Shown in pieces: positions 9,001-12,000 of a DNA stretch of 64,000 nt; the stretch's first letter is position 1; each line of letters starts with the position of its first letter. Source of the DNA: Styela clava (Eukaryota); NCBI RefSeq assembly GCF_964204865.1, contig NC_135250.1:28582001-28646000 (forward strand). The letters run 5' to 3'. Made by a program: the position numbers.

Positions 9001-12000
9001 ACAAATAGGTTTTGTACTGTGTTCAATTTGATTCATCCTTCTACAAATCAATTCATTTGTTTATAACTATATGAACCAAAATATAAATATGTAATTTCCA
9101 TTCTTTCGACAATGTCATTAATATTTTCTTCCTATATTTTTGCTCGACAGGTGATAATCACACTTTAGCGACTGAAATTTTTTTTAGTATATAAGTTACT
9201 AATAATGTGGTCAATTTGGGACATCGATTATGCAACCCATAATTATTGTTGGTTTTTCAACTTTTTTACTATGCTATTATGTGTTAAAAAGACCCAGAAA
9301 CTTTCCACCATGCCCCCGAGGACTTCATTACTAGGATATGTTGTTTCACAATGTCAGATCAAAAAAGTTAGTGCTCAAGAATGCGACGTGACAGCATATG
9401 ATCTAAGAGCTTTTCAAGAGAACACGCGTGATACCGAGGTAAGTTTGTCAGAAATTAACTTTAAAAATCAATTATTTCGATGAGTAAAACCCATGTTGGT
9501 CGTCGATCGATAAACACTGGACGTTTTCAAATACCTGAAATAATTGAAAACATAACATCCATCACTCTAGGCAGTTCGATAAGTTGTCACACACGATGAG
9601 AAACATTTTTTAGGTGTTGGCCGCCCCTGCTCTAGTCCATCGTTTCCCAAACTGTGAACCAAGGAACACTAGTGTTCCGCGAGCGTCTTCCGAGTGTTCC
9701 GTGGAAAGTAAATAAAAAATACGTCTTAATGGGTCGCATGGCAATAGGACTAACTAAGGTATGGTAGTGGGCAGTCGCATTTTCGTTAACCGTCGGCCTA
9801 GTGTTTTGACTGTTAAGTTCATTATCAAGTTTGCAGCAATCATTTTGATTTTGTTATAGGCAAACAGGTAGGTCTAAAGATTAAAGGCAAATGGTCAACT
9901 CTTCTTCCGCCATCTCTGCCAGGATTTACTTTCAAATGCTAAAAAAAAATACTCACGTTTGCTAACCTTGATCCAGCAGATAAATATATTGCATCTCGCG
10001 AAGTTGCTGCAGGTACTTCTATCTTCATTAGACTTAAAATTAGAGGCAAATACTACGTAATGGAAAGTAAACGACATAGAAAGGTGAAATGAATTTGTTG
10101 ATTCATATACACAGCATTCAAATTAAGAAACAACAAAACATTTATAATAAATTAAATATGTAAAATATTCAATCATATTTTTCAGAAAACGAACGAAGAA
10201 GCGATTTTACATGGATATACTATCCCGAAAAATACAACGGTGCGTTTTGCTTTGATAACCAAATTTAAAGCAAATTTGAGAGAAAATAGTTGCTGCGTAA
10301 ATAGTAATGTATAGTTTTATGATAAATAGAAGAAGGCATGTGAAAACTGACATCCAACTCCGTTTCCAGCCACGAATCCACGCAACTCTGGTTGGAAAAA
10401 TACTGAACTCAAACTTAAGTTTTGAACTGGACAAAATTCTAATTTTAATAACAAAAGTTTTTGATATTCTCAAAGCATACACATTGAGTCGTTACTGCCG
10501 AGTTCAACCGAAAAAAAAAAAAATGATAAAGGTGGTGAATATTTTTGTCTTACATTGTGCCCTAATTAGATGTCCTTCATTTCAGGTTTGCCCTAACTAC
10601 TTATGGGCAGTTAATCACGACCCAGAATATTTTGAAACCCCAGACGAATTTCGACCTGAGAGATTGATTTCTCAACCGTGACGGAAAATGTATCCAATCA
10701 AATCACGTGATCCCGTTTTCTGTCGGCCCTCGTCGCTGTTTTGGAGAACAACTTGCAAGAATGGAAATTTTCCTTTTTATAACAGTAATTTTACAGAAGT
10801 TGAAAGTCGTGCCGGATCCGGAAAATCCCCATCCCATCAATTAATGAGGGTGGTAACAGTATAGTCACATATGAGCCACCTCAATTTGAGATCCTTTTTG
10901 AGAATAGATAAAAAAAAACTTTGGTTTTTACAAATAATTCATTGTTAAAGTATATGAATGTATAATCTCACTTTTTGACTTACCAATAATAAGTTTTGAT
11001 GTATTCATATGTATATGTACACGTGATAACTCCGGTTTATTGGATAGATAGAAACAACCATGTGGATATCAATAATTATGCATTTCGTTGTATGAAGTAA
11101 GCATGGTTATGAAATTTTAAAAATGTACAATTTGACTCTTTCAATTACAAAGAAATATCAATGTTGTATATTTACACGTGCTAAGTACAATTCAATATGT
11201 GGTACCCTCGCAGTATGTGAACCAAGATGGCGGACACAGGCACGTAGTATGTGTACCAGGTTAGGGTTGGGCCTTAATTTCAGGTACAAATACTACAGGG
11301 GTCGCTTGGCTAATCCCCAAACCTCATGTGATAAATTTAATTTGATATATTTACTATATGAATAAAAAAAAAAACGTCAAAATAAAACCACGTATATAGA
11401 TTTGTATTTGTTTCAGATGATAGTCTGGAATTACAGAAACTTTTTGCGGTTTCAATTGAGGAGGAATTGTAAGATTTAAGACACCACACATTGAATCTGG
11501 TGTTTGAAATGTGATTCTTTTCTGGTATAAACTTAATCATGAGAAAAATTTCTATCGTCAATGTTGAGCATTTTGCTCTGAATAAAGTTATGCGGTTCCC
11601 CCTGCAGTATGCGCATGTGTTTTCCATTTTAGATAAGTTTGCATTGGTGTTGGAACTATTCAAATATCATCAGTGTTCATTTCCGTCCTGGAGATGAAAT
11701 TATGGTAGCAATATTTGTACTGTATGAACAAGATTGTAATGCTCAATTATATGGACATGAAGATTTGGAATCGGTAGAGTTACCGAGAAGCTTTAGAACA
11801 CTAAGTTTCTTGAAAGAATTGGCGGGCAAGTGCAATGGGGGTGTGTTTCCCCCTTATTCAAGATAAAACAGCAAAATTGTTTGTAAATTATTAGATCTCA
11901 TATGATCCCTGAAGAATTTGAAAAAATGAATAACAGTAGTAGCCTTTTGGCAATTTCAATCGCCATAATTGCCTTTCTGAAATTTTTTGTTTGAAGCCAT

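What the first reader, a model, noticed from the sequence alone, without database searches (positions are those of the whole stretch)
9205..9612. In-frame P450-to-LRR chimeric exon with a 3-nt microhomology junction
Seen: the CYP start codon (9205) and exon-1 sequence run to ...ctaggatatGTT, then switch at the shared GTT (9340-9342) to LRR exon sequence (cf. 5071 GTTgttacacaatgtcag). The copy continues through a consensus donor (gag|gtaagt, 9438) and about 170 nt of LRR intron. Indels in the CYP part cancel out, so the ATG is in frame with the LRR segment (78 codons to the donor). About 1.3 kb of CYP-type upstream DNA is retained. Inference: template switching or duplication-deletion placed an immune-receptor module under a P450 promoter, which would be exon shuffling between unrelated neighbouring families.
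Basis: partly seen in the sequence, partly recalled or inferred. Interest (0 to 1): 0.75.

Follow-up and report, generated by a model that had tools for sequence, protein, structure and literature searches.

The report
Decayed P450–LRR gene-fusion relic
A sea-squirt gene cluster holds a real but apparently dead fusion between the start of a P450 gene and a small piece of a neighbouring NACHT-LRR gene, which is an ordinary by-product of local DNA duplication.

Summary
9340-9612 copies the 3' 99 nt of an LRR exon plus 174 nt of its intron (5071-5342; 87.9% of 273 columns). 7883-9342, and weaker blocks back to about 6649, copy the 5' flank and first 46 codons of CYP A (13532-15801). The two copies meet at a shared GTT. 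ATG 9205 is in frame to the donor at 9438, 78 codons.

The window is Styela clava DNA. CYP A's last exon is 100% identical to a 'cytochrome P450 2U1-like' protein. The LRR gene is a paralogue of a NACHT protein.

Best reading: this is a DNA-level duplication joint. The order is intact NLR, chimera, intact CYP, which is the classic product of a duplication ending inside two neighbouring genes. It has since decayed.
- Two indels put about 27 CYP codons in the wrong frame.
- Only about one LRR unit (33 aa) is present.
- No downstream LRR exon remains.
- No database protein contains the chimera.

It lies beside a scrambled older CYP pseudogene.

Expression could not be checked. Weak hints of constraint exist: exon versus intron divergence gives p=0.01. 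Interest is low to moderate.

The parts
617..6097 (+). 3' part of a NACHT-LRR (NLR-type) gene. It has eight LRR exons, all phase 0-0: 617?-787, 1001-1159, 1860-2033, 2167-2331, 3423-3587, 3961-4125, 5005-5169, and the last exon 5909-6094 plus stop. The 5' part of the gene lies outside the window.
   Evidence: ORFs and splice sites. A profile of the exon peptides hits ribonuclease inhibitor 3tsr_E at E=1.4e-16. tblastn of P0001 (S. clava LOC120326500, 1162 aa, NACHT PF05729) matches each exon at 71-89% identity.
5071..5342 (+). Source (or closest copy) of the LRR piece: the last 99 nt of the penultimate LRR exon plus the first 173 nt of the following intron.
   Evidence: 87.9% identity to 9340-9612. 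Exon part 94 of 99 identical, intron part 146 of 173.
6649..9204 (+). Partial duplicate of the 5' flank of CYP A (about 13532-15663). It is collinear, 73-85% identical in ungapped blocks, and has many indels.
9205..9342 (+). CYP exon-1-derived part of the chimeric ORF: the ATG plus 46 codons. It has two indels relative to CYP A (+4, -1), and the proline-rich motif is read out of frame.
   Evidence: K2P to CYP A is 0.226, against 0.50-0.54 to CYP B, C and D.
9340..9342 (+). The GTT shared by both parents, i.e. the junction microhomology.
   Evidence: Chance of 3 nt or more is 0.07.
9340..9438 (+). LRR-exon-derived part: 33 codons, about one LRR unit, ending at donor GAG|GTAAGT.
   Evidence: There are 5 differences from the parent (3 synonymous, 2 non-synonymous). 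A 73-nt identical run follows the junction.
9439..9612 (+). LRR-intron-derived part. Homology with the parent stops abruptly at 9612|9613.
   Evidence: 84.4% identity, 1 gap.
9613..10173 (.). Sequence of unknown origin between the LRR piece and the CYP pseudogene. Its first approximately 220 nt look G+C-richer than the surroundings when read by eye.
   Evidence: No match in the window. No Pfam domain in its 3 ORFs. Sequence read. The G+C impression comes from reading, not from a composition scan.
10174..10908 (+). Old CYP pseudogene, + strand pieces: the 3' part of exon 8, an intron, and the last exon, which is read in three frames (two frameshifts).
   Evidence: tblastn, Pfam p450 E=2.4e-15, alignment. 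K2P to CYP A is 0.40 and to C and D 0.37-0.39.
12399..13434 (-). The same old CYP pseudogene, - strand pieces: exon 7 and the 5' part of exon 8. The two exon-8 pieces are complementary halves, with about 25-30 nt missing, which indicates an inversion breakpoint inside exon 8.
13532..15663 (+). 5' flank of CYP A, the source of the duplicated flank.
15664..22378 (+). CYP A, an intact 9-exon CYP2-clan gene. It equals P0002, 'cytochrome P450 2U1-like [Styela clava]', 495 aa.
   Evidence: 100% identity over the last exon; exon map; best solved relative is CYP2R1, E=2e-19.

Best explanation
The junction is a genuine germline rearrangement joint at the edge of a Styela clava CYP2U1-like gene array.

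Structure. A partial duplicate of the 5' flank and first 46 codons of CYP A is fused in mid-exon, through three shared bases, to a 273-bp partial duplicate of the penultimate LRR exon and intron of the NACHT-LRR gene, which ends about 3 kb upstream.

Origin. The order is intact NLR, chimera, intact CYP, all on one strand. The 5' part comes from the downstream parent and the 3' part from the upstream parent. This is what a local duplication produces when its two ends fall inside two neighbouring genes. Either a tandem duplication or replication template switching gives the same product.

Fate. At birth the two reading frames were joined codon to codon. Since then the chimera has decayed. Two indels scramble the CYP-derived peptide. 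The downstream LRR exon and gene end are absent. The flanking DNA is a scrapyard of rearranged CYP fragments. It is most likely an untranslated, non-functional relic.

Status of each step:
- Shown: the copies, the joint, the frames, the decay and the neighbourhood.
- Inferred: the one-event origin and the lack of function.
For: - Copies and joint.
- DNA-level origin: intron (174 nt) and about 2.5 kb of non-transcribed flank were copied.
- Both parents intact and in the expected order. The NLR has 8 open phase-0 exons. CYP A has 9 exons and equals P0002.
- The exon-1 piece is the sister of CYP A only: K2P 0.226 against 0.50-0.54 to B, C and D.
- Both pieces differ from their parents, by about 12% and about 20%. 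The joint is therefore not a chimeric join of reads from the parent loci.
- Decay: +4 and -1 indels. The authentic CYP frame is seen only in another frame. Pfam finds no p450 and no LRR in the 78-aa product.
- The CYP-derived coding part diverges like its non-coding flank: K2P 0.226 against 0.209.
- No remnant of the last LRR exon lies between 9439 and 13531, even at tblastn E up to 5.
- No database protein contains the chimera. The longer-protein search found 1 hit among 2 candidates, the NLR paralogue. The near-length search found none.
- The open frame is unremarkable. The frame entered after the first indel is stop-free in the parent. A neutral 78-codon frame stays open with probability about 0.2-0.3 at this divergence.
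- The neighbourhood is rearrangement-prone: a scrambled pseudogene, a second truncated CYP exon-1 fragment at 26850-27593, and CYP B lacking exon 8.
Against: - A simple tandem duplication predicts homology along the whole unit. 5343-6648 and 9613-13531 share nothing except short repeat-family matches. So later deletions, or a three-switch template-switch insertion, must be added.
- The NLR piece is less diverged than the CYP piece. It has 33 differing columns of 273, against 170 of 811 in the best ungapped CYP blocks (Fisher p=0.0009). With the intron alone the figures are 27 of 173 and p=0.12. This fits a two-step history or later gene conversion.
- Hints of constraint on the chimeric exon:
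  - The exon has 5 differences in 99 sites, the intron 27 in 173 (p=0.010).
  - A 73-nt identical run follows the joint (permutation p=0.00045).
  - At both non-synonymous differences the chimera agrees with the paralogue P0001 (32 of 33 residues) and the adjacent parent does not.
  - The donor is consensus.
  - The two indels restore the frame.
- Expression, read support and population presence could not be examined with these tools.
Confidence: 0.55

Rival explanations
1. Two-step history. An older partial (or once longer) duplicate of the CYP A 5' region was later broken in exon 1. The break was repaired with a 273-bp templated filler copied from the NLR gene 4.3 kb upstream, by microhomology-primed synthesis.
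For: The NLR piece is less diverged and less indel-ridden than the CYP piece: 12.1% against 21.0% differing columns, p=0.0009, and 1 gap event in 273 nt against 22 in about 1460 nt. There is 3-nt microhomology at the joint. Homology ends abruptly at 9612|9613, as a second insertion joint would.
Against: With the intron alone the age difference is not significant (p=0.12). The 73-nt identical run suggests the low divergence is local gene conversion. No A-like CYP exons remain downstream: the fragments there are not sister to CYP A. The filler is long, and its template distant, for end-joining filler as I recall it.
Confidence: 0.25
2. It is a young functional chimeric gene. It would be transcribed from the duplicated CYP promoter and would encode a small protein with a hydrophobic N-terminus plus one LRR unit. 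Alternatively it would act as a regulatory RNA spliced from the retained donor to a downstream acceptor.
For: The joint was in phase at birth, and the two indels restore the frame. There is no stop in 78 codons. The exon part is more conserved than the intron part (p=0.010). No amino-acid change is assignable to the chimera lineage when polarised with P0001. The donor is consensus. Conserved blocks lie just upstream of the ATG (82-85%). An inherited acceptor, that of the pseudogene's last exon, lies about 1.1 kb downstream.
Against: The CYP-derived peptide is scrambled and diverges at the non-coding rate. Peak hydropathy falls from 1.81 to 1.33 over a 15-aa window (scale recalled). One LRR unit cannot form the multi-repeat fold, which is established knowledge of LRR solenoids. 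No parental downstream exon or gene end remains. No protein record exists. Synonymous sites are also unchanged in the identical run, which points to gene conversion rather than protein selection. The joint chance of an open in-phase frame is only modestly low, roughly 1/3 x 1/3 x 0.25.
Confidence: 0.1
3. Assembly artefact: two unrelated diverged fragments were joined by the assembler or by a chimeric long read.
For: The window has an assembly gap elsewhere. It also has a 100%-identical 371-nt tandem duplicate at 49069-49805 that could be an assembly effect. No reads could be examined.
Against: Both sides of the joint are unique, diverged copies that lie in the order expected from their parents. 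The LRR piece is only 273 nt, too short to cause a repeat-driven misjoin in a long-read overlap assembly. The published assembly used about 100x PacBio with FALCON (PMC7540406, passages read). Whether the window comes from that assembly is not known. The joint is codon-to-codon with microhomology, as in biological joints.
Confidence: 0.04
4. The LRR piece was not copied from the adjacent gene. It came from another NLR paralogue (P0001-like), or the whole patch was assembled and moved by a transposon that captures gene fragments.
For: The chimera peptide matches P0001 at 32 of 33 residues, against 31 of 33 for the adjacent exon. Repeat-family copies and a TIR-bounded element lie nearby.
Against: The intron copy is 84% identical to the adjacent gene's intron, and position and orientation fit a local origin. 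No inverted or direct terminal repeats flank 6649-9612. None of the 10 ORFs tested in 6287-12280 has a Pfam domain, transposase or other. Only one copy exists in the window.
Confidence: 0.06

Closest known systems
[quoted passage not shown]
   Same: The 5' end (with promoter) of the downstream gene is fused to the 3' part of the upstream gene. The fusion lies between intact copies of both parents, on one strand, and was made at the DNA level.
   Different: Here the two duplicate units are not homologous throughout. The joint is old, at K about 0.18-0.23, and decayed. Expression is unknown. The Drosophila cases are young polymorphisms with RNA-seq support.
Replication template-switch rearrangements (FoSTeS/MMBIR) giving complex insertions (PMC5120786; search listing and start of abstract only)
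   Same: Pieces templated from nearby sequence on both sides of the insertion site, short microhomology at a joint, and several joints close together. The candidate joints lie near 6649, at 9340 and at 9612, with an inversion breakpoint 561 nt further on.
   Different: A single event cannot be shown. A 3-nt microhomology is expected by chance at 7% of joints. Microhomology at the other two joints cannot be scored without the ancestral sequence.
Exon-shuffling hotspots or 'tinkering loci' of Drosophila affinis (bioRxiv 10.1101/2025.10.28.685065; abstract read)
   Same: A small region that concentrates and rearranges gene fragments and holds a composite open reading frame.
   Different: Here all fragments come from the two flanking families within about 10 kb, not from around the genome. 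There is no transcript evidence. Only one window was examined.
Retroposed chimeric genes (jingwei type; recalled, not searched)
   Same: A new reading frame combining parts of two unrelated genes.
   Different: The copy here keeps intron and upstream flank, so it did not pass through mRNA.

Membership tests
Duplication-born chimeric gene (5' of the downstream parent plus 3' of the upstream parent) | The chimera lies between intact copies of both parents, on the same strand, in the order parent 1, chimera, parent 2. | tested here: met
   NLR exons to 6097, chimera at 9205-9612, CYP A at 15664-22378, all on the + strand.
Duplication-born chimeric gene (5' of the downstream parent plus 3' of the upstream parent) | The two duplicate units are collinear and homologous over their whole length. 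| tested here: inconclusive
   The end blocks are collinear: 5071-5342 with 9340-9612, and 6649-9342 with 13532-15801. The middles (5343-6648 against 9613-13531) share only short repeat-family matches.
Duplication-born chimeric gene (5' of the downstream parent plus 3' of the upstream parent) | Both halves have the same age. | tested here: inconclusive
   33 of 273 differing columns against 170 of 811, p=0.0009. Intron alone: 27 of 173, p=0.12.
Duplication-born chimeric gene (5' of the downstream parent plus 3' of the upstream parent) | It is transcribed and has a complete reading frame with a gene end. | not testable with these tools
   No transcript or read data are available. There is no parental downstream exon and no protein record.
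Classical intron-mediated exon shuffling | Breakpoints lie in introns, and whole phase-compatible exons or domains are transferred. | tested here: not met
   The joint is inside exon 1 of the CYP and inside the LRR exon. Only 33 of its 55 codons were copied.
Retrocopy-derived chimera | The copy lacks introns and upstream flank. | tested here: not met
   174 nt of intron and about 2.5 kb of flank were copied.
RI-type LRR / NLR protein | Several tandem LRR units, with a NACHT domain for an NLR. | tested here: not met
   The chimera holds 33 aa, about one unit, and has no Pfam LRR hit. The parent gene meets the LRR feature: its exon profile hits ribonuclease inhibitor at E=1.4e-16. NACHT is known only from the paralogue P0001.
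Cytochrome P450 | The P450 fold with a heme-binding region, and the N-terminal anchor plus proline-rich hinge in frame. | tested here: not met
   The 78-aa product has no p450 hit. The hinge is readable only in another frame. The motif names are recalled.
Template-switch (FoSTeS/MMBIR) insertion | Microhomology at each joint, templates nearby, and one event. | tested here: inconclusive
   There are 3 nt at the one scorable joint, with a chance of 0.07. The templates lie within about 7 kb. The other joints and the single-event claim are not testable.
Transposon-mediated gene-fragment capture | Element termini flank the captured patch, and further copies exist. | tested here: inconclusive
   No terminal repeats flank 6649-9612. 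0 of 10 ORFs have Pfam domains. There is a single copy in the window. The rest of the genome is not searchable here.

The most novel reading that the evidence does not exclude
The chimera is a surviving young gene. A duplicated P450 promoter and start codon would drive a short protein, or a spliced RNA, carrying one NLR-type LRR unit. The frame would have been restored by a compensating indel, and the LRR-derived exon would have been kept unchanged at the protein level since its birth. That would be a caught-in-the-act case of mid-exon domain-fragment recruitment between a detoxification family and an immune-receptor family in a chordate.
Probability: 0.1. Interest if true: 0.55.

Novelty: new member of a known kind. 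Interest (0 to 1): 0.27.

Why it matters
As it stands, this is a clean, datable example of how local duplications at the edge of an expanding gene array create in-frame fusions of unrelated genes, and how most of them decay. The CYP2U1-like family is reported as expanded in S. clava (PMC7540406, passage read). The example is useful for annotation because it warns against calling a P450-LRR gene here. It is also a marker of a rearrangement-prone interval. It would matter more only if transcripts or population data showed that the frame is used.

Tried and rejected
- One full CYP gene with filler. The idea was that a whole tandem CYP paralogue was gutted by a deletion and filled with the LRR piece. 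It is rejected as the simple story. The downstream fragments (exons 7, 8 and 9) are not sister to CYP A, while the exon-1 piece is. K2P for exon 1: 0.226 to A against 0.50-0.54 to B, C and D. Exon 9: 0.40 to A against 0.37-0.39 to C and D. Exon 7: 0.57 to A against 0.26-0.32 to B, C and D.
- Retroposition. Rejected, because intron and flank were copied.
- Search for the missing last LRR exon downstream of the chimera. tblastn with P0001 at E up to 5 in 5343-15663 gave no hit between 9469 and 13531 except one 19-aa chance-level match at E=3.4.
- Search for homology between 5343-7900 and 9613-14500. Word size 7 and E up to 10 gave only short repeat-family matches and the weak collinear block 6608-6923 ~ 13489-13829.
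- RNA genes. 0 tRNAs and 0 Rfam families at gathering score.
- Pfam on single LRR exons. In one search, 0 of 4 had hits. In one search, LRR_6 matched 1 of 9 at E=0.023. The repeat type was shown only by the exon profile against solved structures.
- Pfam on 10 ORFs between 6287 and 12280: 0 of 10 had a hit.
- Literature. Searches for Styela clava with cytochrome P450 (10 papers) and for Styela, NACHT, LRR and tunicate (21 papers, 8 listed) showed no description of this chimera. Supplementary Table S8 of PMC7540406 (expanded families) is closed and was not seen.
- Not done: protein or structure prediction of the chimera, because a single-sequence fold of a 78-aa scrambled peptide would be uninformative.
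- Not used: the genome-contig collection, which holds only bacteria and archaea.
- Unchecked: no eukaryotic genome, read or transcript collection was available. Read support, expression, presence in other individuals or species, and the DNA of the P0001 locus therefore stayed unchecked.
- Spliced models. All protein searches were made exon by exon. The joined (spliced) step was left out, so no search or fold was run with joined NLR exons, joined CYP exons, or the chimeric exon joined to any downstream exon.
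Full report
WHAT THE WINDOW IS.
- The window is 64 kb, 32.2% G+C, with one run of N that I left alone.
- It is tunicate DNA, not human. The last exon of the gene I call CYP A (22058-22375) is 100% identical to 'cytochrome P450 2U1-like [Styela clava]' (P0002, 495 aa). 14 of the 15 proteins found at E<=1e-10 are S. clava P450s.
- tblastn of these proteins maps four 9-exon-type CYP2-clan loci on the + strand:
  - A, 15664-22378, equals P0002.
  - B, about 31028-38399, is nearest P0008 and lacks exon 8 and the first part of exon 9.
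  - C, 42196-51449, is nearest P0011 and P0006.
  - D, 55172-60402, equals P0006.
- The best solved relative of CYP A's last exon is CYP2R1 (E=2e-19).
- The S. clava genome paper lists cytochrome P450 2U1 among expanded families (PMC7540406, passage read; its Table S8 is closed).
- Upstream of the array, 617-6097 holds eight LRR exons on the + strand. All are phase 0-0, and most are 165 nt long.
- Singly these exons give no Pfam hit: 0 of 4, and LRR_6 in 1 of 9 at E=0.023. A profile of the nine separate exon peptides (alignment A3) hits ribonuclease inhibitor (3tsr_E, E=1.4e-16) and, weakly, NLRP1 LRRs (E about 0.01) among 40 chains at E<=10.
- The closest database protein is S. clava LOC120326500 (P0001, 1162 aa, NACHT PF05729). 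It matches the window's exons at only 71-89% identity, so it is a paralogue.
- The window's own NLR protein is not in the searched set. Its NACHT part would lie outside the window.

THE OBSERVATION.
- It is confirmed in full. 9340-9612 copies 5071-5342 (87.9% of 273 columns, E=5e-95). 7883-9342 copies 14476-15801 in three blocks (67-79% identity, E down to 1e-45). Weaker collinear blocks extend the CYP-flank copy back to about 6649 ~ 13532.
- The chimera follows CYP A through GTT 9340-9342 and follows the LRR exon from the same GTT.
- In both parents this GTT is a codon in frame, so the joint was codon to codon when it formed.
- The CYP-derived 138 nt differ from CYP A by two indels, +4 and -1, net +3. 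ATG 9205 reads 78 codons to the donor GAG|GTAAGT at 9438|9439, or 92 codons if read through.
- The similarities are far beyond chance. A microhomology of 3 nt or more is expected at 7% of random joints of this composition.

THE NEIGHBOURHOOD.
- Homology with the LRR intron stops abruptly at 9612|9613.
- 9613-10173 has no match in the window and no Pfam domain.
- Pieces of an old CYP pseudogene follow.
  - On the + strand: the 3' part of exon 8 (10174-10242), an intron, and the last exon (10586-10908). The last exon is read in three frames, i.e. two frameshifts.
  - On the - strand: the 5' part of exon 8 (12488-12399) and exon 7 (13434-13228).
- The two exon-8 pieces are complementary halves of one exon with about 25-30 nt missing. 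An inversion breakpoint therefore lies inside exon 8. One inversion of about 10174-12398 in a once minus-strand fragment would give the present order; this is an inference.
- No trace of the last LRR exon lies downstream of the chimera.

ORIGIN.
- I tested three models.
- (F) One complete CYP paralogue gutted by a deletion and filled with the LRR piece.
  - This is disfavoured. The exon-1 piece is clearly sister to CYP A (K2P 0.226, against 0.50-0.54 to B, C and D).
  - The pseudogene fragments are not sister to A. Exon 9: 0.40 to A, 0.37-0.39 to C and D. Exon 8a: 0.31 against 0.21-0.22. Exon 7: 0.57 against 0.26-0.32.
  - The exon-1 piece with its 2.5-kb flank is therefore a partial duplicate of the CYP A 5' region, separate from the old pseudogene.
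- (T) One tandem duplication with ends in the LRR exon (5071) and in CYP A exon 1.
  - Copy 1 would be 5071-9342 and copy 2 would be 9340-15801.
  - This gives exactly the observed order: intact NLR, chimera (5' CYP plus 3' NLR), intact CYP. [quoted passage not shown]
  - The middles of the two copies share nothing, so two later deletions must be added.
- (G) The same product by replication template switching.
  - A patch (6649-9612), made of a copy of the downstream CYP flank and exon-1 start plus a copy of the upstream LRR exon and intron, would have been inserted between 6648 and 9613.
  - This needs no later deletions but needs three switches in one event (kind: PMC5120786, listing only).
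- T and G cannot be told apart here. Both make the joint a by-product of one local duplication.
- The ages of the two pieces speak against a single event.
  - The NLR piece looks younger: 33 of 273 differing columns, against 170 of 811 in the best ungapped CYP blocks (p=0.0009). With the intron alone it is 27 of 173 (p=0.12).
  - It has 1 gap event, against 22 in the CYP flank.
  - A two-step history (rival 1), or gene conversion with the parent 4.3 kb away, would explain this.
  - A 73-nt identical run right after the joint (permutation p=0.00045) covers synonymous and non-synonymous sites alike. That fits gene conversion.

FUNCTION.
- Against a working gene:
  - Between the two indels about 27 codons are read in a non-CYP frame. 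The authentic anchor-and-hinge peptide appears only in another frame.
  - The CYP-derived part diverges like its non-coding flank (0.226 against 0.209).
  - Only 33 aa, about one LRR unit, are present.
  - Pfam sees neither family in the product.
  - No parental downstream exon or gene end follows.
  - No protein of 42-2000 aa in the 5.8-billion set contains the chimera. The only hit is the NLR paralogue, which covers the LRR part.
- The open frame is weak evidence. The frame entered after the first indel is stop-free in the parent. 43 of 702 possible substitutions would create a stop, so a neutral frame stays open with probability 0.2-0.3 at this age.
- For a working gene:
  - The joint was in phase and the indels cancel. 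Each has roughly a one-in-three chance.
  - The donor is consensus.
  - The exon part is more conserved than the intron part: 5 of 99 against 27 of 173, p=0.010.
  - Of the 5 exon differences, 3 are synonymous. At both non-synonymous ones the chimera agrees with P0001, so the changes fall on the parent lineage. Identities: chimera to P0001 32 of 33, chimera to parent 31 of 33, parent to P0001 30 of 33.
- These numbers are small, and gene conversion explains them as well as selection does. I put a functional chimera at about 0.1.

MISASSEMBLY.
- I could not look at reads.
- Both sides of the joint are unique copies that differ from their parents by about 12% and about 20%. They lie in the order a local duplication predicts.
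- The LRR piece is too short to cause a repeat-driven misjoin. I rate an artefact at about 0.04.

COMPARISON AND VERDICT.
- The feature works like a duplication-born chimeric gene fragment and meets that kind's layout features. It fails the tests for classical intron-mediated exon shuffling, for a retrocopy, and for membership of either protein family (see the membership table).
- It is a new member of a known kind. The joint is real, the story is ordinary, and function is unproven.
- The interval between the NLR gene and CYP A is notable as a small rearrangement scrapyard. This recalls the 'tinkering loci' described in Drosophila affinis (abstract read), but here it draws only on the two flanking families.

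LIMITS.
- All protein searches were made exon by exon.
- Supplements are closed.
- No eukaryotic genome, read or transcript collection could be searched. Expression, read support, population frequency, sister-species state and the DNA of the P0001 locus remain unchecked.

Noticed in passing
window 10174-10908 (+) and 12399-13434 (-): An old CYP pseudogene is split between strands. Exon 8 is cut into complementary halves, with about 25-30 nt lost, which indicates an inversion breakpoint inside the exon. The last exon is read in three frames.
   Followed up: yes
window 26850-27593 (-): A second truncated CYP 5' fragment, inverted. It copies the B/C/D-type upstream region and about the first 30 codons of exon 1 (aa 4-30 of P0006 at 63%). 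Partial 5' duplicates therefore recur in this cluster.
   Followed up: partly
window 37954-38399: CYP B goes from exon 7 almost directly into the second part of the last exon. Exon 8 and the first part of exon 9 are missing, at the edge of a segmental duplication (38187-40622 ~ 51237-53595, 85%).
   Followed up: partly
window 5758-5860, 12073-12154, 26516-26625, 39060-39167, 48945-49050, 52049-52156, 62890-62961, 63691-63793: A repeat family of about 100 nt is present in at least eight copies on both strands (77-83% identity). One copy lies in the intron that donated the LRR piece, just outside the copied stretch.
   Followed up: no
window 11194-12272: A pair of 129-nt inverted arms (80% complementary) encloses 821 nt. 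It looks like a non-autonomous DNA element inside the inverted segment of the CYP pseudogene. No Pfam domain was found in its ORFs.
   Followed up: partly
window 49069-49805 and 48085-48777: Two tandem duplications lie in an intron of CYP C: one of 371 nt at 100% identity and one of about 346 nt at 96%. The perfect one could be very recent or an assembly effect.
   Followed up: no
window 1515-1823: Between two LRR exons of the NLR gene, two overlapping frames read as long homopolymer runs, one of leucine and one of tyrosine. This suggests a simple 3-nt repeat. No tandem-repeat search was run on it.
   Followed up: no
window 617-6097: The window's own NLR gene has eight open LRR exons with good splice sites, yet no protein record in the searched set. 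Only a 71-89% identical paralogue (P0001) was found. The gene may be unannotated, or broken upstream of the window.
   Followed up: partly
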